DNA from: a virus
Length of the DNA: 64,000 nucleotides
Direction: 5' to 3' (one strand)
IMG/VR virus record: IMGVR_UViG_3300045988_160394
Location: 199,173-263,172 of that record
This document shows, in pieces, positions 8,701-61,876 of this stretch (within the stretch, counting starts at the first letter, position 1; each line of letters begins with the position of its first letter). Below the pieces are notes generated by a model. The model saw only the letters and a program-made list of their open reading frames with translations. It was not told the origin of the DNA and made no database searches. The translations under genes and the position numbers were made by a program.

Positions 8701-11610
8701 TCCTTCAATTATAGCTTCTGCTATTTGATACGGATGATAATCTTTATCTTTAAAGCTATTTTTTGAACTAAACTTAAATTGTTTCTTTATATTTTTAAAA
8801 GCCTTTGTATCTTTTAAAACCTCATCTTCTTGTAACATAGCAAATAGTTTTTCAACTGCATCTTTTTCGTAAATTAAATTACCTTTTTTATCTTTACCAT
8901 GAACAGCCTCTGTAGCTGTTTTTATTATTGAGTAAGGGCTATTAACATCATTAAGATTAATCTTTAATATGTTTGCTGTATCTAATGATTTAGCAGTATC
9001 TATATAATTAATTCTTTTTCCTCTAATTATCTTATCGTATTTTATTTCATATAGATTTTTAAAAGTATTAAAATCTGTTTGTAAATTAACGTCGCCTAAT
9101 TTAATCATATCGGCAATATCATCATTACCGCCTCTAAATTTGTTATTAAATATTCATTCAGCAGTCGTTCCTTTTACTTCTTTAACTGTTCTATTAAATA
9201 ATTCTTGTTTAACACTTTCAGCCGTTTTAGGATCTTTAAATACTTCAGTAGCTTCTAAAGCTTCTATTATATTTTTAAACATATTACCATAGCTATTAAC
9301 CATTTCTAATCCTGTAGCATTATTATCAACAGTTGATTGTAATAATCTCATTACATCATTTTTACTATGTCCTAAAGTAGCTATAATCATTTCTTGTGAT
9401 TTTATTAATTGAGCATTACTAAGTTCCATAGCCATTTGCCCTTTAGAAACTCTTTCTGCCATGATAAGAGATATATCTCTACCTGTAATATCCATGTTCA
9501 ATTCTTTAGATAAGTTTTCTTGTAGATCAAGTACATTCTTTATTTTCTTATAAGAATTATCTCTAAACATAGAGTTGTCTGCTCTAGAAATTAATTTCTT
9601 TTCATTATCAGCTAATACAACTCTATTAAATAACTCAGTATCAGAAAGACCTTCTTCATTAACTGGTTTAAAGACAACTTTATTAGTTTCTTTATTTTTG
9701 TTAATTTCTCTAATATCAAATCTGTCTTTCATTCCTTTTTTGATTTGAATTCCATTATCTGTTCTTTCTGCAACAATATCAAAGTTACCGCTTAAAAAAG
9801 CATTCATCTCTTTTTCTGATTTAAATATTAGATTTTGTGTTAAATCTCCTAGTCTTGTTGTAGTTGCGTAATCATCATGTACTGCCATGTTTAATTGAAC
9901 TTGATAAAGTTTTTTACCAGAATATTCAGGGGCTATATCTCCCATCATTGTTCTCAATTCATCTGTTAGTTCTATTTCTCTTATATTAGATATATCGTAA
10001 AAAGAACCTTTATTAATTCCGAAACCTGCACTAAAGTTTTCATGCATAGCTCCACCAGCTGCTTGTAAGGCTTCATCTCCTTTACCTAGTAAATGATTAT
10101 CAGCTGTATATATAGTTCCTGTACTTTTACTTTGTGCAAAGTTGAAATAATTTCTTCCACCATAACTAGTACTAACTCCTTTTTTAGCTTGAAGTATTTG
10201 CTTACCAGGAGTTAATACTGTATCTTCTGTTTTTATATTTTCTATTAAATTGTTTATGTGCTCTATAACAGATACATTCCCTGGAAGACTTTCTGATTTC
10301 TTTGTAAAAAACCATGATAATCCAGTAACGTCATCTTCAGCCATATGAGGTTTTAGTCCTTCACTATTAAACAAACCTCCATAATGTTTTTGTAATAAGT
10401 ATTCCTGTCCTCTTACTTTATCTATATCTCCTATTTTTGCATTTCCATATACAGAAGATAATGAATTATAATCTGTTGCTAATTTAACTCCACCTAAAAC
10501 ATCTAGATCTGCATAAGATGGAATATTAAAGCCAACTCTTTTACTTTCGAAATAATTATTTAATTTTCCATTATAATCGTTATTCCATTTTAATAACATA
10601 TTATTTAAAATAAGTTCGTCAAACGCATTACTGTTAAAACCAGAAATCATTGCTTTTTTATTATTAACAGCTGTTTGAGCTTTACTTATAGTTTGTGTAA
10701 CTTTTAATATATCTGCTTTTATTCCATCAATTTCTCCTGTTTGATGATAAACATTATTTAAAACTTCTGCTCCTTTTTCTATAACTGAAATATCTTTATA
10801 GTTATTTCTATCTACATTAGGGAAATTAGTTGCTTTAAAATATTTTTCTCCTTTAACTTTTTCATATTTAAAATCTTTATCTGCATATTTAGCTAAACGC
10901 ATAGCTGTTACTTTTAATTCTTCGTCACTATCTATAGTTCCATTTTCTATAGCCTTTCTTATTTTATTTACAGTTTCTTCTTTTTCTTTATCTGACATTC
11001 CTATAAGTACACTTACATTATCTATTACCTTACCTGTTTTAACGTCATATTCTTGCATAGCAAATTCTGTAATAGCATTAGGTCTTCATATATTATTTTT
11101 ATCTTTTCCTCCAAGAGTTTCTAAGTCCCAAACAAAAAGACTTCCTCCATTACTTTTTAGAGAGTTAAAATATTTATAAGATTCTTTTCATGAATTGATA
11201 GATTCATTAGCAGAACCTCTTTGTTTACTATGAACAACATTACCTAAATTCTTTATTGTTAATCCTAACATATTCTCTGATGAATTAGATTTATCACCTA
11301 TTATTTCAAAGAAGTTTAATCCTTTATCTCCGATGTTGGTTAATTGTCTAAGCTTTTCTGTTATTACATCTATATCGCCAGTAGCAACTTTTTTATTTCA
11401 TGTATACTTATGCTTATTAATAAACATATGGTCAGAATCTTTTATTAAATACTTACCACTATGTAATAATTCTATTGTTCTATTTATTTCTTCTATAGCC
11501 GCATTTTCTTTATTTATATCTACTTTTTTTGAAGCTTCAATGTTACGTTGAGCTATACGGATTCTATCCATAGTAGTTCCAACTATATTAGTTGATTTAT
11601 TATTAGCCAT
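2770..11610 (-). CDS. Giant 2946-aa protein: N-terminal DEDDh (DnaQ-like) exonuclease motifs plus RNA polymerase beta-like and beta-prime-like (NADxDGD) motifs; candidate virion-packaged RNA polymerase
   Basis: Track ORFs 11398..11610, 9154..11058, 4783..9108 and 2770..4731 lie in one frame. They are separated only by TGA at 11398, 11188, 11086, 9154 and 4783; the gaps were scanned and hold no TAA/TAG. ATG 11608-11610 lies behind GAGGTGG; TAA at 2770. Motifs: LFVWDLETLGG, NSNAFDELIL, KPHMAEDDV (Exo I-III, ca 10320-11130); AKHGNIGQMYE (ca 6430-6447); DRYPNTRNNSI...KANADQDGDS (NADQDGD = 4492-4512). Confidence 0.75.
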
Positions 11611-11659
11611 TATTCCACCTCTTTAAATACACTTATTTCATTATTAATTATTATATTAT

Positions 11660-11693
11660 ATAAAAATAAGACCGCCTTGTATAAGACGATCTT
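11660..11693 (-). terminator. Rho-independent-type terminator between the small membrane-protein gene and the giant gene
   Basis: On the minus-strand RNA: AAGAUCGUCUU-AUAC-AAGGCGGUCUU (11-bp stem including two G-U pairs) followed by AUUUUUA. Confidence 0.5.
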
Positions 11694-11701
11694 AAAAATA
11701 A

Positions 11702-12016
11702 TTATAATACAATACCTAGTTTAATCAGGATACTGTTCATTCTATTAACTTCTTTTCTAAGTTCAGAATTTTCTTTTGTCAAAGTTTCTATCTTTTCTTC
11801 TAGAATCTTTGTTTGTTTAGCATATTCTTCTTTAACTTTTGAGTTTTCTATTGAAAGCTTTTCTATCATCAACATAAGTTGTTCGTTAGCTGTTAAAATA
11901 AGATCTTGCTTTTTATTATTTTTGTTAATTCATAAACCATACATAGTTCCGATTAAAGTTATTAATGCAACAATAATAGTAGCATCAATTGAATTTAAAC
12001 TAGTTAGAATATCCAT
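11702..12016 (-). CDS. 104-aa protein with N-terminal transmembrane segment and coiled-coil tail (holin/spanin-like architecture, function unknown)
   Basis: Absent from the ORF track because of an in-frame TGA at 11930-11932. ATG 12014-12016 lies behind AAGGGGTG; TAA at 11702. Sequence MDILTSLNSIDATIIVALITLIGTMYGL(TGA)INKNNKK, then heptad-like EKLSIENSKVKEEYAKQTKILEEKIETLTKENSELRKEV. Confidence 0.55.
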
Positions 12017-12037
12017 AAAAACACCCCTTAGTTAATA

Positions 12038-15000
12038 TTAAAATAACATTGAAACCAATCCTTGAATACCTGATTGGACACCGTATTCGCCTATTTTTTT
12101 AACATCACTAGCAGTTTGACTTATGTCTCCAACTATTCATAGTCCTGGTGCACTAGTAGGACTCATAGATATATTTTGTAAAGAAACTCCTAATCCAGAC
12201 ATTGCTGTTACCATATTAGAAGCATATTTGATACCACCTGTACCTTTATCAAATTTATGAATGTCTGGTGCATCTTGATATTGAGCTTTTCCTTTCTCTG
12301 ATTCGTAATATCCGAAATCAGATAATAACATACCTTCGTTCTGAATAGTTTTCATTTTAACATGTTTCAAATTAACGTTAGGTTTCCAACCTCTTCAGTT
12401 CATACCAGGTAGTTTATGCTTTTTGAAAAACTTCCTGTTACTATCTACTTTTTTTACTTTCTCTCTTCAAGCTATTTGTAGAGGTTTCCTTAAATATTCT
12501 GGTAAAGATTTAAGGATTTTTTTTCTTTCGTTCTTATCAGTTTCATTCATAAAGTTTATAAAATAATCTTTATATTGATCTGGTATTGACGCTAAGATTT
12601 CATCTTGTGTAGCTCCTTCTGATAATCCATAAATAGTAGATTCCATTGCTTTCTTGTAAGCAACTGCTGCCTTAGTATACTTACCACCTTTAAGCATGGT
12701 TTGTTGTGATTGTAAAGCCTGTATCTTATTGTTAATCTTCATCATTTGTTGATCATATTCATATCCACCAGCTGTATATTTATTACTCAACTTTTCGGCC
12801 TTTTTAATCAATTTAGCAACTTTTTCTTTATTTTTATCTATTTTTCTAAAAGCTTTCTTTATATTTACGCTTCCTTCGAAAACAAAAGCTCTTAAAGCAG
12901 CTTGATTATATAAGCCTTTATATTTCACATATTCTAATCTATCAAAATATTCATCTAGTTCAAATTTCTTTTCAACTTTCTTAGGTATTCATTTTCTTCT
13001 AAACATGTCTTTATCAAAATCAGGATTCTTAATAGCTGATACACCTAATCCAACTAAAGCACCTATAGCTGCACCTTTACCATGTCCTAATTCATCTAAT
13101 TTTAAATATCTAGATAATGTTTCTCCAGCAAAAGCAAATGATGCTGTTGCTTTCAATGGATTTTCAGCATTATTTCATCCTCATGCTAAAGACCCTAAAA
13201 CTGCTCCAACTTCTGCTCCTACTTCTATATTAGTTTTCTTTCTTATATTAGTAGTTCTAACTCCTAAGTTCCATAAAGCAGCAGTACCCATTCCAAGTAA
13301 AGCTGTAGGGTTAGTTGCAGCCATTAATGCTCCTGCTCCATATTTTAAATAAGATTCACTAGTTAGTTTCCCTATATTCATAAATAAAGCAGCGGAAGCT
13401 ACTGCACCTGCATGTTGTAACATAGACTGTCCTGATATTCTATTAAACGCAGGTTTTACGAATCCTTCAATAGGATGATCCCAAGTAGTTAATGAGTTAC
13501 CATAAATTTGTTCATTCATGAAAGATTCTCTAGCTGTTTCTATTTTTAAATACTTATTATGAAGGAATGGAATATTAGCATGACCAATAACTTCTTGAAT
13601 AGCTCCTAATGTTTCTTGCATAGCTGAAACATTTGCTAAATAACCTATGGCACTTGTATCTTCTTTATCTTTAGTTGCCATTCCTCTTTCTATTAATGTC
13701 TTGTTAATATTAGTTCCTAATCCATCTGTATCATATATAACAGCATTAGTAATTAATCCATCTTCTAATCTTTTTATAGCATTAGCTGATGTTCTATAGT
13801 TAATATGTTGACCTACATCTAATACATCATGGACATCAGCATCTTTATCTAAAACAATACCTCCAAGATTAAGTTTTTCTCCTGAAGCTAATTCTACAAT
13901 AGAACCATTGATGCTTTTAACTACACCTTTTTTCATTTTTACATTATTACGTATATATCTGTAATTAAAGAATTCATGGTTCCCTGACATTTTATTAGCC
14001 CTTTGTTGAATCTCTTTCATCTCTTCTATTAACTCAGGGTCTTTTACAGTATTTCTAGCAATGTTTCTCCATATCTTATATTCTTGTGATGATGGTGCTA
14101 TGTCTGCTAATATTTTAAATCTATCAAATGCACCATATTCACCAAACTCATCTGAATGAAGTTTATTAAGAGTTTCGTATCCTTTACCAGGTAATCTCAT
14201 TTCTCCTTTAGGTAATGAAGTAAATGGGTCCCCTGTTAAGAATCTTTCAGGTAATCATTCAGGCATATTATTTCTTAATGGATTATATCTAATAATAGAC
14301 TTATCTTCTGATGGAAAGAAACGTCTAGCTATCTCCATTAATTCTCCACCAAAACCACCTATTTGAGAATCTCAGAATCCTCTAGAGAAACTTGTCATTG
14401 CTCCTGCATCAGCATATCTCATTTTATAGCTATCTTCTCCAAAAGCAAAGTCTCCTAAGAATCCATATATACCAGATAGCTGTTTAGCAGAATATATTCC
14501 ATCTTGCATAAAATTAGTTACAAGACTTTTATTAACCAAACCAGGGTCATATATATCACTATAATATTCTGAATTTCTAACATTCATTTGATTAACAAGA
14601 TTAGTGTATACATAAGTACCTTTAGTCTTATCAGGTAATACACCTTTATTGTATGCTGGGTTAGATTCATAACCAGTTAAATAATTCGCTGCTTTTTTAA
14701 TATACTTATTTAATCCAGAAACTATTTGTCTAGCTATTACTCCTGTTTCTTGAGATTGGCTAGATATTGTTTGTACAATAGGGCTATTAGGATCTATTGC
14801 TTGTGTTTTATCGAATGCTGGATTAACATCTCCATTAGGAACATTTAAATGATTAAAAGATTCAACATCATTTTCTACAAAACCTACTCCAGGAGAAGAA
14901 ACTTCTCCATGAGAAATGTTTATATTCATATGGCCGTCTCCTGGATTACCATATGGAACATACTTAGCATTTCTTACATCAGTACCTTCAAAAATTAAAA

Positions 15001-18000
15001 CATCATCATTTTTATTTCCTCTAGCTTTAATTTTTTCGTTAATGTGTTTTAGTACCGTTCTTATATCTCTTCCATCACTACCTAATCTTTTCTTTACTTC
15101 AGGAAGCATTCTTACTGGTTTTATCATTTCTCCTAAAGTTGGATTAAGTATAGCTCCTCAAGGAGTACCTTCAGTAAATAGTTTTCCTGTTAAAGGATAA
15201 GGTCTATCATCCATATGTTTTTTCTCTAACCAATATGGATCTAAGAATGCTCTTATAGGACTTAGAGGATGTCTAATTGTTGGTATTCAACTATGTTTCC
15301 ATTTTTCATTTTCTGAACCATATATACTAACGTCTTTATAATTACTATGAGCTCTTCTTAAATAGTTAGGTTGATAGTATTGAACTGATCCTCCTCTAAA
15401 TTCATTAGCTGAACCAAAGCCCCAGAAACGTCCTCTTCTAACAACTGATACTCCATTTTCATATCATTCTTTTCTTTCATCAGCATCTTGAAATTCATTT
15501 GTTCCTGTCCAATACTCTCCTATTATAGATGATTCTTTAGCTCAGTTAATAGCTTGACCTATACCAGTAGCATAAGCTAATTTTCTTGCTGCTATATCTA
15601 CATTGGAAACTGCATTAGCTGCTGCTCCAGTAATAGAAACTCCAGTAAAGTTTTCTGATTCAAAATTAAGATAATCATATAGCTTATAAGCAGCCATTAC
15701 TGGCAATACTCTTTTAAGACCTATATTTTTAATTAATTCTAAAGTAGAACCTGTATTTTCTGATGATAGATTTAATCCTACTCCTTCTAATCCTCACATT
15801 AATCTTGCAACCATAAATTGAGGTATTTGAGTAAGGGATGTGTAGTTGCTTAAATCACCATTTCTACTAGCTAGTATTTCCTTACCTGCTTGGCCTGCTA
15901 ATTTAATAGCATCGTTTATTGATTTGATTTGTCCTAATCTTGATAAAGCAGATTCTCTATTAAAAGTATAGTTGTCATACTCATTTATATAAGTTTCATT
16001 TAAACTACCAAAAGTCTTATCATAAATATTAGTTCTAGATCCTAAATCGTCTATCATATTTATGTATTCTTGTTTAAACGTAGGACTAGTAGTTAATAAG
16101 TCATCTAGTTTTTTTAATGGAGAACCTTCTCCTATTAATTGATTAAGATGCAAATCCTGGTCAAAGTCATTATAGATTTCTAAGTTCTTTTGCATAATAG
16201 ACCAGTTAGCAAGATATCTTAAATTCTTTTGTTGTTCTAAAGTTAAGTTAGAGTTTTGTAGAACCTTTTCTAAATTAACTATTCCAGATTTAACTCCACC
16301 ATTAGATTCTCTTAACATAACTTCTTTAAGAGCTTCTCTTCTAATAACGTTTTCTGCATCTAATACATTAGTAGACGAAACAGAATATCCAAATATACTT
16401 TTACTATCTACTTGAGATATGTTTTGCATATTCATTAAATGGTCTATATTAGATAAACCTTTATTAAATATATTGTTTAAATCCTGATTAAAGAAATTAC
16501 TTTCTCCTGAATTATTTATTAAATGTAATAATTCTTCAGCATTTTCATACTCTTTATTATTTAAAATATTAAGTATTCTTAACGATTCTTTATCTGTTAT
16601 TGCTCCAGAATGTATCAATGAAGATATAGAAGAATCAGTCACTTGTTGAGAAGCAGTTATATCATTTAATATAGATGATAATTTTTTATTATCTTCTAAT
16701 ACCATATTTGCTATATTTGCAGAAGCTTCTAATAAACTTTCTTCTGAAAAATCCATTCCTTTTGCTTCAGCATAAACGTAAGATAGTTGATCTATTTTTT
16801 CTTCTGTACTTAAATCACTACCTATAAATCTTTTTACTCTTAATAGCTTGTCTTTAACTCTATCTTGGTCTTTCTTACTATTGCCAGTAAAAATGTCTTT
16901 TATTTTATTAAACATAGTATAGGAACCAGTTTGATCAATGTCTAATTTTTTAGCAAGCTCATTATCACTTGCTGTTAATATGTCTTTATTAGTACCTAAG
17001 AACTCTTTTGTTAATCTAGCCCCTTTACCATGCATATTATTATTTATAATACCATCTGCTATCTTATCTGAAAGAACTAAATTGCCTTGTTCATCTAAAA
17101 CAGTTTCAAACAACTTTGCTTTTTTAGTACTAGCGTTACCTATAGCTATTTTAGAAGTGAAAGCAGTTGTACTAGTATTTCCTTCTTCATAAGCTCCTAA
17201 TAATGAAGTATTTAAAGCTTTAAAGTTAACGAATATAGGATTACTCTTTTTTAATTTTATAGCATCTGTTAATCCAAATATTCTACCTAGAGTACTTACT
17301 GAAAAGTCATCTATAGCTTTATTAGCCATATCTCTTACTTCGGCCGTACTATATATTTCACCATTTCTATTTATTCTAATAGCTTTATCAAAGATAGTAT
17401 TGTCATCTAATTCAGGCATTTTATCAATAAAGTCTTTTAAATTCTTTTTGACTAATCTACCATTTTCATCTTTAGTTACATAATCAAACATTCTAGGATT
17501 ATAGTCTTTAGACTCAGTAAACTTTTTAAAGTCTCCAAGAGTCATTGCTTTATCTCCAGAAAATAATAGTTCACTATCTATTTCTAAACCTAAAACATTC
17601 TTTGCGAATTTATCTACTTTACCAAAGATAGTATCACTTGTTTTCTTATTATCTAATAAGCTATTTCTTAATTCTTTATCTACTTGTTCTCTTATCTTTC
17701 TAGTCTTAGAAAAGTTATTTCTTACTTTTTCAGATATATCTTTTTTAGAATTATATATATATTCTAAGAATTCTTGTTTCTCTTCATTAGAGAAATTCAT
17801 CTTATTGAAATGCTTATCTAAGAAATTAGAAAAAGCTATCTTATTATCTTTAGATACTACTGCATTTTCATTTATTTTTTCATAAGCCTCTAAAGCAGTA
17901 TTTTTAATCGTAACTGGATTTCTTTCGATGTTTTCTTTTTTTGTATATTTAGCAATAAGCTTAAATACTTCTTGTTTCTTTAATTCAGTTTCATAGTTAG

Positions 18001-52908: not shown

Positions 52909-53205
52909 GCGTTACCTTTCCCCTGCGGGGGTAGTTTCTCACGTTAAGCCCTACGGGTTTGAGTTAAAAGTAACTACCTTCGGTTATCGAGAAATTAGAA
53001 ATATTTCTTTCTATGACAAGTTAGCTCCGCTTCGCTACGCTAACTGTTAGAAAGAAGAAAACTCGCTTCGCTCGTAAGAAATAGAGCGTTTTGTGAGTAT
53101 TCGTGAGAAGAGTGCTTCTCTTTGGTGGGTAAAACCACCAACGGTTGTACTTAGCTCTACGAGTGCCATAAGAAATCATAAAAGAAATAGTACTTCTTTT
53201 TGATT
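52909..53205 (+). ncRNA. Unclassified GC-rich structured RNA island (about 300 nt, at least 6 hairpins, several UNCG tetraloops)
   Basis: Noncoding in all frames and far more GC-rich than its flanks. Hairpins and helices read directly:
- CCCC-UGCG-GGGG;
- GGUAGUU...AACUACC enclosing CUCA[..AAGCCC-UAC-GGGUUU..]UGAG;
- C-UUCG-G;
- a 16-bp bipartite helix UUCUUUCUA..AGUUAGC-(13 nt)-GCUAACU..UAGAAAGAA (53005-53056);
- CGCUC-(10 nt)-GAGCG;
- GAGAAG-AGUG-CUUCUC;
- GGUGG-GUAAAA-CCACC.
The stable loops are UNCG only on the plus strand. Confidence 0.6.
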
Positions 53206-53247
53206 ATAAACTAAATCAATTATATTAAATTAAAGGAGGTATTCACA

Positions 53248-53730
53248 ATGAATACAAATACAACTATCAAGAAAAGAATATTTACTATGGCTATGAGAGG
53301 CAACACTGCTATCTTAACAGACAGTAGTAATCCTCAATCTACTATCTCATTTAAAGGAGAAAACTTATCTATTATTGGCTTACAACTATTAAATAAGCTA
53401 TTAGAAAGTATGCCAACTCAAAGATTAAACTATAAAGTAGCAGTATTATTACCACATACTGTAGTTATTCCTACATTCGAAAATACTAGAAATGCATGGA
53501 TTGCTAATGGTAAAACTAAGACTGGTAATGATATAGAACCTGCTAAGCTTCATGAAGTTATTAGACTTAATGAGCTATTAAGAGTTAAAGGTCATAACGT
53601 AGAAATCTTTGACCAAAGCAAACTAACTAGTGTAATGTATAAATCATTTACTAGAAAGACATGGGAGCTTATGGATAAGATAGTACCAAAAGCAGAGGCA
53701 GAAGATTGCAATGCATTTATGGTTCAATAA
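53248..53730 (+). CDS. Hypothetical early protein (160 aa), distant paralog of 55406..56248
   Basis: Intact ORF with RBS AAAGGAGG. Shared block ANGKTKTGNDIEPAKLHEVIRLNELL vs RTGKTKSGTQLTGQEMQAFKDVYKMI. Confidence 0.6.
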   Translation: MNTNTTIKKRIFTMAMRGNTAILTDSSNPQSTISFKGENLSIIGLQLLNKLLESMPTQRLNYKVAVLLPHTVVIPTFENTRNAWIANGKTKTGNDIEPAKLHEVIRLNELLRVKGHNVEIFDQSKLTSVMYKSFTRKTWELMDKIVPKAEAEDCNAFMVQ

Positions 53731-53760
53731 TATTATTATGAGTCAGTGAAATATCTGGCT

Positions 53761-53821
53761 CTTTCTGTCGTGGAAGATACAGTCCACCTGATGATGGCTA
53801 TTAGGTAGCCGAAACAGAAAT
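53761..53821 (+). ncRNA. Hammerhead ribozyme, type III (open stem III)
   Basis: Layout: UUUCUGU-C^ (stem III 5' strand, GUC triplet, cleavage after C53769); GUGGA-AGAUACAG-UCCAC (stem I); CUGAUGA; extra U; GGCUA-UUAGG-UAGCC (stem II); GAAA; CAGAAA (stem III 3' strand). All invariant core nucleotides are present. Confidence 0.85.
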
Positions 53822-53846
53822 ATTATTACATTATGAGGTGATTGAT

Positions 53847-54269
53847 ATGAAAATATTTATACCAGCTTACGAAGGAATATCTGGATTATATACTGTAGAA
53901 GAAATAAGAGAAGGAGAAAACTTCTATTATGATAATGGATCTATGGTAAACATATATGACAACTATTTTATTGTTATCAATAACAATGGAATAATCGAGT
54001 ACGAAAGTGATGAAGGATTATACAGCATATTTGTTATGTGTTCTGATGAAGAAATAAAATTCTTAGAACAATTTACAGATATAGGATCTAAAAAGATTTT
54101 AGAGAGAATGTTAGAGCGTAGAATGTATTACGCTAATCTTAAAAAATCTGTAGATGGTAAAACATGTCCTGTATGTGGAAAGAAACTATCCGAATCTAAT
54201 ATAGATGCTGGAATAAGAAATCTATTCTGCAATAATTGTAAGCATAGTGAAACTATTTGCATAGATTAG
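53847..54269 (+). CDS. Hypothetical early protein (140 aa) with C-terminal zinc ribbon
   Basis: ATG lies after GAGGTGATTGAT. Motif CPVCGKKL...FCNNCKH. The G of the TAG stop is the first nt of the next ribozyme. Confidence 0.6.
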   Translation: MKIFIPAYEGISGLYTVEEIREGENFYYDNGSMVNIYDNYFIVINNNGIIEYESDEGLYSIFVMCSDEEIKFLEQFTDIGSKKILERMLERRMYYANLKKSVDGKTCPVCGKKLSESNIDAGIRNLFCNNCKHSETICID

Positions 54270-54329
54270 TCGAAACGGTAGAAATACCGTCGTACAGGGA
54301 TGGCTTCCTGTGCCTGATGATGACAAGCC
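54269..54329 (+). ncRNA. Hammerhead ribozyme, type II (open stem II) with loop I pseudoknot
   Basis: Layout: GUC-GAAA; ACGGUA-GAAA-UACCGU (stem III with GNRA loop); C^ (cleavage after C54291); GUACAGG-GAUGGCUU-CCUGUGC (stem I); CUGAUGA; extra U; GAC (pairs with the 5' GUC); AAGCC, which is complementary to GGCUU in loop I. Confidence 0.8.
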
Positions 54330-54363
54330 AAACTATATTTGAATTTAAAGGAGATTGATTGAT

Positions 54364-54921
54364 ATGAAAACAAAATTCACATTAAAAGGATTAGAAATAG
54401 GAAACATTAAGATAGGAGATATCGTTGTTGAAGGCGAATACTTTGTTAAAGAGGCATGGGGTATGAAAAACCTAATTAAAGGAACAGTTGAAGATTTGTT
54501 ACACAACATGCCAAAATATCTTGATCAAGTATCTACAATAAACAACAAGTACGAAGAACTATCTAGAAAAGAATTCTTAAAGAAAGTAGACCATATTCGT
54601 ACTAGAATTAATGGAGCTAAAACTATAGAAGAATTAGATAGTATCTGTAAATGCTATTACGAAATATGTCCATTTAGTATGCATAGTGAAATAGATGCTC
54701 TTCATAACCAAAGATATCATGAGTTAAGAAGATATTCTGATGATGAAATTAAAGAGCTAAAAAAAGAAATAGAGTCTTCAGGTACAATTACAGGTATTGC
54801 AAGACTTATCAATATTGTTAAGAGTGAAGTTATTCCTGATAAATATAGAGACGAATTGTTAGCTATGGTTGACAGGAAACACTCAGAAATATTATTTAAA
54901 TATACAACAAGTATGAATTAG
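54364..54921 (+). CDS. Hypothetical early protein (185 aa)
   Basis: ATG lies after AAAGGAGATTGATTGAT. The TAG stop overlaps the start of the next ribozyme. Confidence 0.6.
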   Translation: MKTKFTLKGLEIGNIKIGDIVVEGEYFVKEAWGMKNLIKGTVEDLLHNMPKYLDQVSTINNKYEELSRKEFLKKVDHIRTRINGAKTIEELDSICKCYYEICPFSMHSEIDALHNQRYHELRRYSDDEIKELKKEIESSGTITGIARLINIVKSEVIPDKYRDELLAMVDRKHSEILFKYTTSMN

Positions 54922-54986
54922 TCGAAACGGTATAGAAATATGCCGTCGTGTAGAGATAGCCTACTACACCTGATGATGACAGGCTA
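54921..54986 (+). ncRNA. Hammerhead ribozyme, type II with loop I pseudoknot (second copy)
   Basis: Layout: GUC-GAAA; ACGGUAUA-GAAA-UAUGCCGU (stem III, 2 bp longer than copy 1); C^ (cleavage after C54947); GUGUAG-AGAUAGCCUA-CUACAC (stem I); CUGAUGA; extra U; GAC; AGGCUA, which is complementary to UAGCCU in loop I. Stems I and III and the pseudoknot all covary relative to 54269..54329. Confidence 0.8.
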
Positions 54987-55019
54987 AATAATATTTTAAT
55001 TTAAAGGAGATTGATTAAT

Positions 55020-55280
55020 ATGACAAATTGGAAAATTACAAAAATAACAACAGGAGTAGCAACTGAAGAAGAGGTAAAAGGATGGGAAGAAATAGAAAAT
55101 GATGACATCTGTCCTGTATGTGGATCAAAAATGATTGATGATGAAGAAGAACAATTATTACAACATACTGAATGTCCTATATGTGGTTACTTTGAAAACA
55201 TCTACGGTAATGCTATAGATTTCTATGGTAAAGAATGTTTCGAAGAAAAGAAAAAAGAAATAGGTCTTTTAAATGAATAA
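55020..55280 (+). CDS. Hypothetical early zinc-ribbon protein (86 aa)
   Basis: ATG lies after AAAGGAGATTGATTAAT. Motif CPVCGSKM...ECPICGY. TAA stop. Confidence 0.6.
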   Translation: MTNWKITKITTGVATEEEVKGWEEIENDDICPVCGSKMIDDEEEQLLQHTECPICGYFENIYGNAIDFYGKECFEEKKKEIGLLNE

Positions 55281-55297
55281 TTAGGGAGTTCTCTCCC

Positions 55298-55356
55298 TTC
55301 TTCTAATGTAGCCAATGACGGTCACAAGCCCGTATAAGAAATACAGAGTGGAAGAA
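55298..55356 (+). ncRNA. Twister ribozyme (P1-type arrangement)
   Basis: Sequence: UUCUUC U^AA UGUA GCCAAUG ACGG UCACAAGC CCGU AUAAGAAA UACA GA GUG GAAGAA. Pairings: P1 UUCUUC/GAAGAA, P2 UGUA/UACA, P4 ACGG/CCGU, pseudoknot CAC/GUG. Conserved blocks UAA, GCCAAUG, UC.CAAGC and AUAA match the rice twister as I remember it (..CUAACACUGCCAAUGCCGGUCCCAAGCCCGGAUAAAAGUGGAGGGGG..), with compensatory changes in every helix. Predicted cleavage between U55304 and A55305. Preceded by hairpin AGGGAG-UUCU-CUCCCU. Confidence 0.85.
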
Positions 55357-55405
55357 AATAATATTATGGGTTAAGCTTCCCTAAAAAGCATAGGAGGAAA
55401 CAATT

Positions 55406-56248
55406 ATGAAAAATGTAGTATTAGTATTCAAAGGAAATCACGCTTTAGCATTAGACAATGCTGGAACAGTTATTAAGAAGACTTCAACTGGTAGCTTTTT
55501 AGCTAACTTAGAAACTTTAGCAGAAGTTCTTAACACTATCCCTGTAGGAGATGTAGCTCCAGAAGTTACAACTATTCATATCCCTGACTTTATTCAAGGT
55601 ATAGCTTCAGGTACAGCTTTAGATTATATTAGAACTGGTAAGACTAAATCTGGTACACAATTAACTGGTCAAGAAATGCAAGCTTTTAAAGATGTGTATA
55701 AGATGATAGCAGAAAGAATCTATAACGTTAGATTAAGCTTAGCTAAGTTCATACCAAAGACTAATACAGAGTTAATAGCTTTAAGAACAAACGCTTATAA
55801 TGCTTTAACTAATTATGTTGCAAGTACTGGTGGAATGGTAATGGGAGGAATGGCTCCAGCTTCACAAGTAATTGACCCTGATAAAGCTTTAAGAGAAGCA
55901 TTAGATGCTCAAATCATAGAAGCTATTAATAAGGGAGATATGGATAAGATAATGCAATTAAAAGCTATGAGAGATACATTAAAGCAACCAACTATGGTTC
56001 AAGGTACTGCTCCTGTAGCTCAACCAACTAATAGTTATGTGCCTACACCAAACTTTGGAATGGAAAGCACTACAGCTCCAACAGAAAATAATACTGCTGT
56101 TGCACAAGATAGTAATAACCAACCAATAGCTACACCTGAAGAAACTCAACAACAAGCTCAAGCTCCAGTAGAAAATGCAGGTACTGATGTTAGTTTCACT
56201 AATACAACTACAACTGATGCAAGTAACATCAACTGGGCTAATGTTTAA
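55406..56248 (+). CDS. Hypothetical early protein (280 aa), Q/T/P/A-rich C-terminal half
   Basis: Intact ORF with RBS AGGAGG and TAA stop. Confidence 0.65.
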   Translation: MKNVVLVFKGNHALALDNAGTVIKKTSTGSFLANLETLAEVLNTIPVGDVAPEVTTIHIPDFIQGIASGTALDYIRTGKTKSGTQLTGQEMQAFKDVYKMIAERIYNVRLSLAKFIPKTNTELIALRTNAYNALTNYVASTGGMVMGGMAPASQVIDPDKALREALDAQIIEAINKGDMDKIMQLKAMRDTLKQPTMVQGTAPVAQPTNSYVPTPNFGMESTTAPTENNTAVAQDSNNQPIATPEETQQQAQAPVENAGTDVSFTNTTTTDASNINWANV

Positions 56249-56261
56249 TTAATAGCTAATA

Positions 56262-56294
56262 AAGCCTCTATTAATATAGGGGCTTCTTTATATT
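56262..56294 (+). terminator. Rho-independent-type terminator
   Basis: AAGCCUCU-(8 nt)-AGGGGCUU followed by CUUUAUAUU. Confidence 0.55.
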
Positions 56295-57097: not shown

Positions 57098-57105
57098 TTT
57101 ACATA

Positions 57106-57131
57106 AGAGAGTCTATATGGCTCTCTTTTTA
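57106..57131 (+). terminator. Rho-independent terminator
   Basis: AGAGAGUC-UAUAU-GGCUCUCU followed by UUUUU. Confidence 0.65.
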
Positions 57132-57161
57132 TTATTATTAATATAAGGGAGATTGATTGAT

Positions 57162-61105: not shown

Positions 61106-61297
61106 ATGTTATATACAACAGTTAAATGTGATTGTGGAAGATATGCATCAGCTGATGATTTAATGGAATCAGAGGCTAGTAGTATAATCATTTGCCCAGA
61201 ATGTTCAGCAACTTGCCCTAATTGTGGTAGAATAATTTGTGAAGATGAAATACTATGGAATACAAAGAAATGTCCAATGTGTGATCCAGATTATTAA
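61106..61297 (+). CDS. Small zinc-ribbon protein (63 aa)
   Basis: Motifs CDCG...CPECSATCPNCG...CPMC. RBS AAGGAG. Confidence 0.55.
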   Translation: MLYTTVKCDCGRYASADDLMESEASSIIICPECSATCPNCGRIICEDEILWNTKKCPMCDPDY

Positions 61298-61630: not shown

Positions 61631-61876
61631 ATGTTTGGTTGCAAAAGAGAATCTAGTGAACAAATAAGAGAAAGATTGCTTAAATTGTGTAAAGAAGAAG
61701 GACGTGAATCATGTCCTCCATGCTTAGATGCAGATGTTGCATTAAATGAGTTAGCGGATCATTTGCTGGGTAAAGACTGGTATGTTGTTGGTCCTATTCA
61801 TGCTAAACAAGTTAATTTTGAAATAGTAAAAGCTATAGAAGAAAAATATAAGAGGGTGAAAAGTAATGGCTATTAG
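61631..61876 (+). CDS. Hypothetical protein (81 aa)
   Basis: Track ORF with RBS AAAGGAGAG and TAG stop. Confidence 0.5.
   Translation: MFGCKRESSEQIRERLLKLCKEEGRESCPPCLDADVALNELADHLLGKDWYVVGPIHAKQVNFEIVKAIEEKYKRVKSNGY

What the first reader, a model, noticed from the sequence alone, without database searches (positions are those of the whole stretch)
53731..55405. Ribozyme-punctuated operon: four consecutive spacers each carry a self-cleaver followed by a conserved initiation module
The order is gene, HH(III), gene, HH(II), gene, HH(II), gene, twister, gene.

The predicted cuts would release three small mRNAs, each holding exactly one ORF (140, 185 and 86 aa) and ending in 5'-OH and 2',3'-cyclic phosphate:
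- 522 nt (53770-54291);
- 656 nt (54292-54947);
- 357 nt (54948-55304).

Three ideas follow from this layout.
- It is a built-in, host-independent way to process a polycistronic early transcript, analogous to RNase III sites in T7 early RNA.
- The 656-nt unit begins with the 3' part of one type II hammerhead and ends with the 5' part of the next. Joining its ends (for example by an RtcB-type ligase) would recreate an intact chimeric hammerhead, as in viroid-like circular RNAs. Circular mRNAs are therefore conceivable.
- Cleavage could uncouple the stability or translation of individual early genes.

All three ideas are inference.
Basis: inference. Interest (0 to 1): 0.8.

Follow-up and report, generated by a model that had tools for sequence, protein, structure and literature searches.

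The report
Self-cleaving ribozymes between phage accessory genes
Four real self-cutting RNA motifs sit one per gap between five small genes of a giant uncultured phage, a layout described in phages since 2011; related phages show that the genes between the ribozymes are swapped in and out by DNA recombination inside the ribozyme and leader sequences.

Summary
The window holds exactly one type III hammerhead (53762-53820), two type II hammerheads (54267-54336 and 54919-54992) and one type-P1 twister (55300-55354). Each lies in one of four consecutive spacers.

All catalytic-core positions are present. Stems and pseudoknots covary among relatives. Nothing comparable occurs elsewhere in the 64 kb.

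The source is a ~263 kb myophage that reads TGA as Trp. In about ten gene arrangements found in relatives, every spacer between two conserved genes (160 aa and 280 aa) carries one ribozyme. The class at a given junction can differ: twister, type II hammerhead, or a hybrid.

The cassettes between the ribozymes differ even where the flanks are 100% identical. Deletion junctions fall in the shared ribozyme core or leader, not at the RNA cut sites.

The layout and the processing hypothesis were published by Perreault et al. 2011, who also looked for circular products and found none. I read the ribozymes as portable intercistronic processing and insulating elements, and the locus as a new member of a known kind. 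Function is still inferred.

The parts
53248..53730 (+). Conserved 160-aa gene that bounds the hot spot on the left. It is a weak paralogue of the 280-aa gene.
   Evidence: Present in all relatives. BLASTP against the 280-aa protein gave E 0.004. Codon differences against L132 were 25 synonymous and 7 nonsynonymous.
53740..53761 (+). 7-bp hairpin directly 5' of the hammerhead's open stem III. After cleavage the upstream RNA ends as hairpin + UUUCUGUC>p.
   Evidence: Found by the terminator-like scan and present in the MFE fold. In L134 a different hairpin (GAGAGG..CCUCUC) sits at the same position.
53762..53820 (+). Type III hammerhead ribozyme, cut after C53769.
   Evidence: Of the cells in the stated structure, 97% pair. 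There are 3 compensatory pairs among 4 variants. Slid controls pair at 37-47%.
53847..54269 (+). Cassette ORF of 140 aa with a C-terminal CxxC..CxxC motif. It is an ORFan restricted to this phage lineage. Its stop codon TAG is the first three bases of the next ribozyme.
   Evidence: It is absent from L132, L127, L134, L135, L129 and L130.
54267..54336 (+). Type II hammerhead #1 with a loop I / 3'-tail pseudoknot (UGGCU/AGCCA), cut after C54291.
54364..54921 (+). Cassette ORF of 185 aa. Its stop codon TAG overlaps the next ribozyme.
   Evidence: It is absent from L001 and L003, whose flanks are 100% identical to the window. Homologues of 186, 195 and 191 aa occur in L127, L132 and L134.
54919..54992 (+). 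Type II hammerhead #2 with pseudoknot UAGCCU/AGGCUA, cut after C54947.
   Evidence: L127 carries the same element with a U7A change.
55020..55280 (+). Cassette ORF of 86 aa, a zinc-ribbon-like protein with a mosaic relationship to the 79-aa and 116-aa genes of L001.
   Evidence: In L135 the same gene follows the type III hammerhead leader.
55283..55298 (+). Hairpin (A)GGGAG-UUCU-CUCCC(U) directly 5' of the twister. After cleavage the upstream RNA ends as hairpin + UCUUCU>p.
   Evidence: Hairpins with different sequences occupy this place in L130, L132 and L134.
55300..55354 (+). Type-P1 twister ribozyme with P1, P2, P4, T1 and T2 and no P3. Cut between U55304 and A55305.
   Evidence: Of the cells in the stated structure, 96.8% pair. 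Compensatory changes occur in P1 (2 pairs) and in pseudoknot T1 (CAC/GUG against GAC/GUC in L134).
55406..56248 (+). Conserved 280-aa gene that bounds the hot spot on the right. Its N-terminal ~150 aa are predicted to adopt an RNase H-like fold.
56262..56285 (+). Terminator-like hairpin after the 280-aa gene; probably the end of the unit.

Best explanation
The four elements are genuine cis-acting self-cleaving ribozymes. There is one in every spacer of a short, co-transcribed block of accessory genes, which is inserted between two conserved genes of a ~263 kb jumbo myophage that reads TGA as Trp.

Proposed mechanism:
1. As RNA polymerase reads through, each ribozyme folds and cuts the RNA.
2. 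Each upstream gene is left with a short 3' UTR of 22-39 nt. This UTR ends in a stable hairpin and a 2',3'-cyclic phosphate.
3. Each downstream gene starts with a structured 5'-OH leader of 72-101 nt, followed by its ribosome-binding site.

The ribozymes therefore act as compact, host-independent 3'-end and 5'-end formers, that is, as insulators. They take the place that terminator-like hairpins occupy between the neighbouring conserved genes, but they do not stop transcription.

Because the ribozyme plus leader is self-contained and repeated, it also provides the homology at which single-gene cassettes are deleted, inserted and swapped by DNA recombination.

What is shown: the identity, placement and conservation of the ribozymes, their interchangeability, and the recombination junctions.

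What is inferred: cleavage in vivo, co-transcription, and the effect on mRNA stability and translation.
For: Identity of the ribozymes:
- Complete catalytic cores and the expected three-way junction or double pseudoknot folds.
- Covariation in the hammerhead stems and in the twister P1 and T1.
- Five different complementary pseudoknot pairs among eight type II hammerhead variants.
- None in 100 shuffles.

Placement:
- In ten distinct arrangements from relatives, all ~24 spacers between the 160-aa and 280-aa homologues hold a ribozyme.
- This includes the two relatives with no cassette at all: L129 has one type II hammerhead and L130 has one twister.
- None of the other + strand spacers in the window holds one.

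Interchangeability:
- The junction before the 280-aa gene carries a twister in the window, L001, L003, L130, L132, L134 and L135. In L127 and L129 it carries a type II hammerhead. In L127 the downstream leader is the same as the one that follows the twister in the window.
- In L134 a type II hammerhead replaces the terminator-like hairpin after the 253-aa gene, at the point where an extra 138-aa gene is inserted.

Hairpin at every new 3' end.

No room for promoters between ribozyme and start codon, and no excess of sigma-70-like sites.

Cassette turnover:
- The flanks are 100% identical between the window and L001/L003, while the cassettes differ.
- Crossovers lie in the conserved tail or core and at the shared leader.

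Precedent:
- Tandem hammerheads in prophage transcripts cleave in vitro and in vivo (PMC3088659).
- The synthetic RiboJ ribozyme insulator raises expression of the downstream gene (PMC6206723).
Against: - There are no RNA data for this uncultured phage. Cleavage, co-transcription and timing are all unobserved.
- Two of the four ribozymes score below Rfam's gathering scores, and one is not found by Rfam at all.
- All hammerheads here have an extra U between A9 and stem II. Its effect on activity is untested, although the same signature occurs in at least 119 IMG/VR loci.
- In Bacillus subtilis the 5'-OH product of the glmS ribozyme is degraded by RNase J1 (Collins et al. 2007, listed in the reference list of PMC6765202; the finding itself is from my own knowledge). 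Cleavage could therefore destabilise the downstream RNA rather than stabilise it.
- The hairpins with U-rich tails before the type III hammerhead and the twister could be real terminators. The ribozymes would then act only on read-through RNA.
Confidence: 0.6

Rival explanations
1. Circular mRNAs or viroid-like units. Units released between two ribozymes are ligated end to end, by RtcB or by ribozyme reversal. The resulting circles would be translated, or would serve as mobile intermediates.
For: The 656-nt unit begins with the 3' part of one type II hammerhead and ends with the 5' part of the next. All type II copies share the same stem II, so ligation would restore an intact ribozyme. This geometry resembles retrozymes and viroid-like RNAs (PMC7761336, listed).
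Against: - Only one of the three units has matching ribozyme halves.
- Perreault et al. looked for circular or spliced products from such arrays and found none.
- The cassette deletions in L003, L128 and L134 have junctions in the core, tail or leader and not at the cut sites. The observed turnover is therefore at the DNA level.
- No RNA ligase or reverse transcriptase was seen among the ORFs I scanned. Those scans covered only part of the window's ORFs, and the window itself is 64 of ~263 kb.
- A re-formed hammerhead would cut the circle again.
Confidence: 0.05
2. Selfish or neutral passengers. The ribozymes travel with the accessory-gene cassettes, or simply serve as recombination repeats. 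RNA cleavage would give the phage no benefit.
For: The ribozymes are confined to the variable hot spot. They mark the recombination junctions. Degenerate remnants exist: a type III hammerhead remnant in L134 has AUC at the cleavage triplet and has lost its stem III partner strand.
Against: - Structure-preserving covariation and invariant cores show selection on the RNA fold, not only on DNA homology.
- A ribozyme is kept at the 160|280 junction even in relatives with no cassette.
- One class is replaced by another rather than lost.
Confidence: 0.12
3. Decay or timing switch. Cleavage exposes 5'-OH ends to host RNases such as RNase J1, as happens with glmS. This would shorten the life of the accessory-gene mRNAs, or cleavage might be modulated by conditions or by translation of the upstream ORF.
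For: The upstream stop codon (TAG) lies inside type II hammerhead stem II. A terminating ribosome would therefore cover part of the ribozyme. Perreault et al. raise the possibility of regulated cleavage in phages.
Against: - The new 5' ends begin directly with a stable hairpin (stem I). From general knowledge, this should hinder 5' exonucleases.
- No ligand-binding extension is present.
- The ribozymes look like fast, minimal, pseudoknot-stabilised forms.
Confidence: 0.13
4. Back-up for termination. The hairpin plus U-rich tract before the type III hammerhead and the twister are the real 3'-end signals. The ribozymes would only trim read-through RNA, or would help release or terminate the polymerase.
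For: Terminator-like hairpins sit immediately 5' of the cut sites, and the U-rich tract is the 5' strand of the open ribozyme helix. Terminator-like hairpins are about 5-fold enriched in this region (9 observed against 1.9 expected).
Against: - The type II hammerheads have no separate upstream hairpin.
- The downstream cassette ORFs have no room for promoters of their own, so read-through must be the productive route.
- The U tracts are weak (UUUCUGUC and UUCUUCU).
Confidence: 0.1

Closest known systems
Clustered hammerhead ribozymes flanking single genes in prophage and phage genomes (Perreault et al. 2011, PMC3088659)
   Same: - Several ribozymes lie on one strand, each in an intergenic spacer, and flank single genes of variable identity in a phage.
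- The type II hammerheads have a loop I / 3'-tail pseudoknot.
- The proposed role is processing to single-gene mRNAs.
- Such tandem arrays cleave in vitro and in vivo.
- My IMG/VR scan found at least 119 loci with the same type II core signature. Of these, 38 have two or more ribozymes, the largest array has 8, and the median spacing is 605 nt.
   Different: - Here three different architectures (type III hammerhead, type II hammerhead and twister) fill four consecutive spacers.
- The host genome is a ~263 kb TGA-recoded jumbo phage.
- Near-identical genomes show the cassettes being exchanged at the ribozymes.
Association of twister, hammerhead and other self-cleavers with each other and with phage genes (Roth 2014 and Weinberg 2015, as summarised in Harris et al. 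2015, PMC4604425)
   Same: A twister lies within a few hundred bases of hammerheads in a phage context.
   Different: This locus adds orthologous-position evidence that twister and type II hammerhead substitute for each other before the same gene and leader. I could not read the primary papers, so I cannot say whether they already report this.
RNase III processing of phage T7 early polycistronic mRNA (my own knowledge)
   Same: It works in a similar way: a long transcript is cut between cistrons, and the new 3' ends are hairpin-closed.
   Different: T7 relies on a host protein enzyme acting on duplex sites and leaves 5'-phosphate and 3'-OH ends. Here the RNA cuts itself and leaves 5'-OH and 2',3'-cyclic phosphate ends. 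This locus is not a member of that system.
Synthetic ribozyme insulators such as RiboJ (PMC6206723)
   Same: A self-cleaving ribozyme placed 5' of a ribosome-binding site removes the upstream context and leaves a hairpin-led 5'-OH mRNA. This increases expression of the downstream gene.
   Different: RiboJ is engineered and sits after a promoter. The elements here are natural and sit between cistrons. An insulating effect has not been tested here.
PeSL promoter-stem-loop cassettes of T4-type phages (Arbiol et al. 2010, PMC2839356; Comeau et al. 2014, PMC4122927)
   Same: Short repeated regulatory elements flank non-essential ORFan genes in hyperplastic regions. Recombination between the repeats causes insertions, deletions and replacements between near-identical phages (compare).
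   Different: PeSLs are a promoter plus a terminator and work at the level of transcription. The repeats here are ribozymes plus leaders and work at the RNA level. DNA mini-circles, which were shown for PeSLs, have not been looked for here.
Retrozymes and viroid-like circular RNAs with hammerheads (PMC7761336, PMC7229834)
   Same: Tandem hammerheads of the same type delimit a unit whose ends could be ligated to restore a ribozyme.
   Different: Those units are circular RNAs that replicate or are retrotransposed. Here there is no evidence of circles or of a reverse transcriptase, and cassette turnover has DNA-recombination junctions.

Membership tests
Hammerhead ribozyme, type II (Rfam RF02276) | Catalytic core C3-U4-G5-A6-N7-G8-A9, G12-A13-A14, the A15.1-U16.1 pair, and H17 at the cleavage site | tested here: met
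   Both copies have CUGAUGA, GAAA and GUC^. One extra U follows A9. Rfam treats it as an insertion, and it is shared by at least 119 IMG/VR loci.
Hammerhead ribozyme, type II (Rfam RF02276) | Stems I and III closed by loops and stem II open, with a pseudoknot between loop I and the 3' tail | tested here: met
   Stem I is 6-9 bp, stem III is 6-8 bp and stem II is 3 bp. The pseudoknot is 5-7 bp and is complementary in all 8 variants, with 5 different sequence pairs.
Hammerhead ribozyme, type II (Rfam RF02276) | Covariance-model score at or above the curated threshold | tested here: inconclusive
   Copy #1 scores 40.4 bits against a gathering score of 37. Copy #2 is not reported by Rfam even at E<=10. 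It scores 66.0 bits, E 1e-14, with a model built from 90 independent phage type II hammerheads.
Hammerhead ribozyme, type III (Rfam RF00008) | The same catalytic core, with stems I and II closed and stem III open | tested here: met
   Of the cells in the stated structure, 97% pair, with 3 compensatory pairs in stems I and II among 4 variants.
Hammerhead ribozyme, type III (Rfam RF00008) | Covariance-model score at or above the curated threshold | tested here: not met
   30.4 bits against a gathering score of 48.5, although the match covers the full model at E 2.8e-5. I rely on the core, the fold and the covariation instead.
Twister ribozyme, type P1 (Rfam RF03160) | Conserved nucleotides around the U^A cleavage site; stems P1, P2 and P4; the two pseudoknots T1 and T2 | tested here: met
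   The alignment to the model shows UAA, GC, GGUC-CAAGCCCG, UAA and GAG. The pairs I assigned form in 96.8% of cells, with compensatory changes in P1 and T1. My assignment of T1 and T2 rests on my reading of the Rfam consensus and on memory.
Twister ribozyme, type P1 (Rfam RF03160) | Covariance-model score at or above the curated threshold | tested here: not met
   49.1 bits against a gathering score of 67.2, E 7e-8 over the whole window. In the alignment the model's P3 hairpin positions are deleted, which I take to be the cause of the shortfall.
All three ribozyme classes | Site-specific self-cleavage giving 2',3'-cyclic phosphate and 5'-OH ends | not testable with these tools
   This needs in vitro transcription or RNA end mapping.
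Phage ribozyme arrays that flank genes (Perreault 2011) | Two or more self-cleavers on the coding strand, in the spacers flanking individual genes of a phage or prophage | tested here: met
   Four ribozymes in four consecutive spacers. The phage origin is shown by portal, major head and tail sheath hits and by contigs of ~263 kb.
Viroid-like or retrozyme circular RNA | A circular RNA product with a junction at the cleavage sites | tested here: inconclusive
   The junction pattern is absent from the viral and metagenome collections, but so is the native junction. The DNA deletion junctions do not lie at the cut sites.

The most novel reading that the evidence does not exclude
The ribozyme plus leader is a natural plug-and-play adaptor. 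It insulates the expression of any single gene dropped into a phage transcription unit. Its conserved core (TAGTCGAAAC, CUGAUGAUGAC) and leader also serve as the DNA crossover sites that move such genes in and out. This would be an RNA-level counterpart of T4 PeSL cassettes, and it might include excised DNA mini-circles carrying one ORF and one hybrid ribozyme. Twister, type II hammerhead, type III hammerhead and plain terminator-like hairpins would then be interchangeable parts at the same junctions.
Probability: 0.4. Interest if true: 0.65.

Novelty: new member of a known kind. Interest (0 to 1): 0.45.

Why it matters
What the many self-cleaving ribozymes in phage genomes are for is still an open question. 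The 2019 review PMC6765202 says additional work is needed.

This locus does not change the picture, but it is an unusually clean natural experiment:
- Near-identical phages differ only in which ribozyme-bounded genes they carry.
- More distant relatives put a twister, a type II hammerhead or a hybrid at the same junction.

This argues that cleavage itself is the selected property, not any particular sequence. It also argues that the ribozymes mark the boundaries of exchangeable single-gene modules in an accessory region that probably has an anti-defence role.

The locus also supplies compact natural insulator parts and defined constructs for testing the processing hypothesis.

Tried and rejected
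- An Rfam scan of the whole window at gathering thresholds found nothing, because the speed filters missed the ribozymes. Only narrower E-value scans recovered three of the four.
- There is no similar DNA in GenBank phages. No relative of the 280-aa protein is in IMG/VR.
- Pfam and PHROGs gave no function for any cassette gene or flanking gene, only weak zinc-ribbon hints. The 140-aa protein is an ORFan.
- CTGATGA sites at 61152 (+) and 15477 (-), which I first took to be intergenic, lie in coding sequence; the second is in TGA-recoded sequence. A weak hammerhead-like descriptor hit at 12432-12347 (-) has stems of only 4, 3 and 4 bp and falls below the 13-pair threshold. I take it as chance.
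- The AATATTAT-type motif after each ribozyme and the shared ribosome-binding-site and leader module are not ribozyme-specific. I read them as A/T-rich leaders and recombination homology, not promoters.
- The invariant 15-mer CTCTACGAGTGCCAT upstream of the 160-aa gene is unique in the window, so it is not a general phage promoter.
- The spacer 52909-53247 gave no Rfam hit and only modest covariation. I did not pursue it as a new ribozyme.
- The circular-junction search was uninformative.
- The primary twister and 2015 ribozyme-discovery papers, and Felletti 2017, are not held in the library.
Full report
**1. What is in the sequence**

Region 53731-55405 lies in a + strand block of small genes. 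Five ORFs are called there: 160 aa (53248-53730), 140 aa (53847-54269), 185 aa (54364-54921), 86 aa (55020-55280) and 280 aa (55406-56248).

Evidence from scans:
- A structural descriptor for type II and type III hammerheads was run over both strands of the whole 64 kb. It found three hits with 17-18 stem pairs in total: type III at 53762-53820, type II at 54269-54324 and type II at 54921-54980. It also found one weak hit elsewhere, with stems of 4, 3 and 4 bp.
- One hundred dinucleotide shuffles gave no hit at 15 or more pairs.
- Rfam at gathering thresholds over the whole window returned nothing. E-value scans returned Hammerhead_II at 54268-54333 (40.4 bits, gathering score 37) and twister-P1 at 55300-55354 (49.1 bits, gathering score 67.2, E 7e-8). 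A narrow scan returned Hammerhead_3 at 53762-53820 (30.4 bits, gathering score 48.5, E 2.8e-5, full-length match).
- Rfam did not find the second type II copy.
- I therefore built a covariance model from 90 non-redundant type II hammerheads taken from unrelated IMG/VR contigs. With filters off, it scored the two window copies at 67.9 and 66.0 bits (E about 1e-14). Nothing else in the window scored above 9.6 bits.
- MFE folding reproduces the three-way junctions and the twister stems P1, P2 and P4.

The cut sites follow C53769, C54291 and C54947, and lie between U55304 and A55305. The internal products are 522, 656 and 357 nt, each with one ORF.

**2. Evidence that the folds are under selection**

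The window is identical to part of a 263,172-bp metagenome contig (L002, 0 mismatches). Homologues of the 280-aa protein (97% down to 43% identity) led to syntenic loci from related phages.

- Eight type II hammerhead variants keep every core nucleotide. Stems I and III change in a compensated way. The loop I / 3'-tail pseudoknot takes five different complementary forms: UGGCU/AGCCA, UAGCCU/AGGCUA, UUGGUCU/AGACCAA, UAGUC/GACUA and UUGAUC/GAUCAA.
- Four type III variants pair in 97% of cells and show three compensatory pairs. Slid controls pair at 37-47%.
- Seven twister variants pair in 96.8% of cells. Compensatory changes occur in P1 and in pseudoknot T1 (CAC/GUG against GAC/GUC). Slid controls pair at 31-57%.
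- All hammerheads here carry an extra U between A9 and stem II. The same signature occurs in at least 119 IMG/VR loci.

**3. Context**

- The minus-strand part of the window encodes a portal protein, a major head protein and a tail sheath.
- Those late genes read TGA as Trp. One frame of the stretch 11058-15794 is open for 1251 codons in code 4, against 357 in code 11. The + strand genes stop only with TAA or TAG.
- The + strand block holds many small ORFs and a Tad8 (Thoeris inhibitor) homologue above Pfam's threshold. It is therefore probably an early or accessory region, but this is inference.
- The neighbouring conserved genes (616, 280 and 253 aa) are each followed by a terminator-like hairpin.

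**4. The locus is a cassette hot spot, and every spacer in it has a ribozyme**

The frame 750-616-387-160 | ... | 280-253-48-65-52 aa is conserved. What lies between the 160-aa and 280-aa genes varies:

| Locus | Arrangement between the conserved genes |
|---|---|
| window | HHIII-140-HHII-185-HHII-86-twister |
| L001 | HHIII-140-HHII-79-HHII-116-twister |
| L003 | HHIII-140-HHII-116-twister |
| L135 to L139 | HHIII-86-twister |
| L132 | HHIII-195-HHII-116-twister |
| L127 | HHIII-186-HHII (no twister) |
| L128 | a single HHIII/HHII hybrid |
| L134 | 118-HHIII-158-(HHIII remnant + HHII)-191-twister, plus an extra HHII-138 inserted after the 253-aa gene |
| L129 | no cassette, one HHII |
| L130 | no cassette, one twister |

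(HHII and HHIII are type II and type III hammerheads. Sources.)

All of roughly 24 spacers in these arrangements carry a ribozyme. None of the other + strand spacers in the window does.

The class at a given junction is interchangeable. The same leader and the same 280-aa gene are preceded by a twister in most genomes and by a type II hammerhead in L127. In L134 a type II hammerhead stands where the window has a terminator-like hairpin after the 253-aa gene.

**5. Recombination junctions**

- The window, L001 and L003 are 100% identical across the 616, 387 and 160-aa genes, the twister spacer and the 280-aa gene. Yet they differ in their cassettes.
- L003's single type II hammerhead equals L001's first copy up to ...GACAAGCCAAA. 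From ATATTTTATGAGG onward it equals the leader of L001's second copy.
- L128's hybrid equals L127's type III hammerhead up to GGTAGTCGAAAC and L127's type II hammerhead from there on. L134 has the same kind of hybrid.
- The 86-aa gene follows the type III hammerhead leader in L135 and the type II hammerhead leader in the window. The switch lies at the shared ...GATT(G/A)ATATG.
- None of these junctions is at a GUC^G cut site. The turnover is therefore DNA recombination at short conserved sequences, not RNA cutting and rejoining.
- The cassette genes evolve faster than the flanking genes. Synonymous against nonsynonymous codon differences were 9 and 19 for the 86-aa gene, compared with 25 and 7 for the 160-aa gene.

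**6. Anatomy that bears on mechanism**

- Every upstream product would end in a hairpin within 8 nt of the cut:
  - hairpin 53740-53761 followed by UUUCUGUC;
  - the type II hammerhead's own stem III;
  - hairpin 55283-55298 followed by UCUUCU.
- Hairpins with different sequences hold the same positions in relatives.
- The stop codon TAG of each ORF that precedes a type II hammerhead is the first three bases of that ribozyme. The 3' UTRs are 22-26 nt there, 24 nt before the twister cut and 39 nt before the type III cut. The same stop-to-cut spacing holds in an eight-ribozyme IMG/VR array.
- Each downstream product begins directly with a ribozyme helix and reaches the next start codon after 72-101 nt.
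- Only 26-27 nt separate a hammerhead from the next start codon. The cassette ORFs therefore cannot have promoters of their own downstream of the ribozyme. Sigma-70-like sites are not enriched either.

**7. Interpretation**

The best-supported model is cis-acting, host-independent processing of a read-through transcript into single-gene mRNAs with protected ends. The ribozyme plus leader acts as a portable insulator and also as recombination homology.

- Shown: the identity, placement, conservation and interchangeability of the ribozymes, and the recombination junctions.
- Inferred: cleavage in vivo, co-transcription, and the effects on stability and translation.
- Rivals, each scored in the report sections:
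  - circular RNA;
  - a selfish passenger;
  - a decay or timing switch;
  - back-up for termination.

**8. Comparison with what is known**

- Perreault et al. 2011 reported multiple hammerheads flanking individual genes in prophages. They showed cleavage of such arrays in vitro and in vivo, proposed processing into single-gene mRNAs, and noted that circular or spliced products were sought but not detected.
- Twister and hammerhead are known to associate with each other and with phage genes.
- A 2019 review still calls the purpose unresolved. My literature searches found no later work that settles it for DNA phages.
- Functional analogues are the RiboJ insulators, the PeSL cassettes of T4-type phages and, from my own knowledge, the RNase III sites in T7 early RNA.
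- The locus is thus a new member of a known kind.
- As far as my searches show, two points have not been stated before:
  - direct comparative evidence for class interchangeability at orthologous junctions;
  - cassette exchange at the ribozyme cores and leaders.

**9. Side observations**

- The N-terminal ~150 residues of the 280-aa protein are predicted with pLDDT 80-90 to adopt an RNase H-like fold (Foldseek E about 1e-4, TM 0.4-0.5). The position of the first catalytic Asp reads KGN rather than DGS.
- The 339-nt spacer before the 160-aa gene is more conserved than the genes around it. It contains an invariant 15-mer.

Noticed in passing
window 2000-45500, minus strand (for example 11058-15794): The late and structural genes read TGA as a sense codon, with Trp fitting the context. 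One frame is open for 1251 codons in code 4 against 357 in code 11. All 31 called + strand genes stop with TAA or TAG and never with TGA. ARAGORN found no tRNA gene in the window.
   Followed up: partly
window 52909-53247: The 339-nt spacer upstream of the 160-aa gene is more conserved than the flanking genes (98-99% against 89-93% in L132 and L135). It folds into a string of hairpins and contains an invariant 15-mer, CTCTACGAGTGCCAT (53155-53169). The 15-mer is unique in the window and duplicated in L134. There is no Rfam match. It may be a regulatory site or an uncharacterised RNA next to the ribozyme array.
   Followed up: partly
window 55406-56248 (and its weak paralogue at 53248-53730): The N-terminal ~150 aa of the conserved 280-aa protein are predicted with good confidence to adopt an RNase H-like fold. 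The first catalytic Asp position is KGN rather than DGS, so it is probably not an active RNase H. The C-terminal half is disordered and low in complexity.
   Followed up: partly
window 61631-61876: An 81-aa protein matches Pfam Tad8, the type II Thoeris inhibitor (52.5 bits against a cut-off of 27). This suggests that the + strand block carries anti-defence genes.
   Followed up: no
L134 5637-5696 and 5732-6148: In this relative a type II hammerhead plus an extra 138-aa gene are inserted after the 253-aa gene. The window has only a terminator-like hairpin there (57105-57127). This is a second insertion site that follows the same rule: a new gene comes with a ribozyme.
   Followed up: partly
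L067 9400-12150 and L064 (IMG/VR contigs): Unrelated viral contigs carry arrays of up to eight type II hammerheads in about 3 kb. One small ORF lies between each pair of ribozymes, and each ORF ends 22-28 nt before the next cut site.
   Followed up: partly
window 57136-57161: The leader GGGAGATTGATTGATATG before the 48-aa gene is the same ribosome-binding-site and spacer module found after the type II hammerheads, but there is no ribozyme here. The module is therefore not ribozyme-specific.
   Followed up: yes
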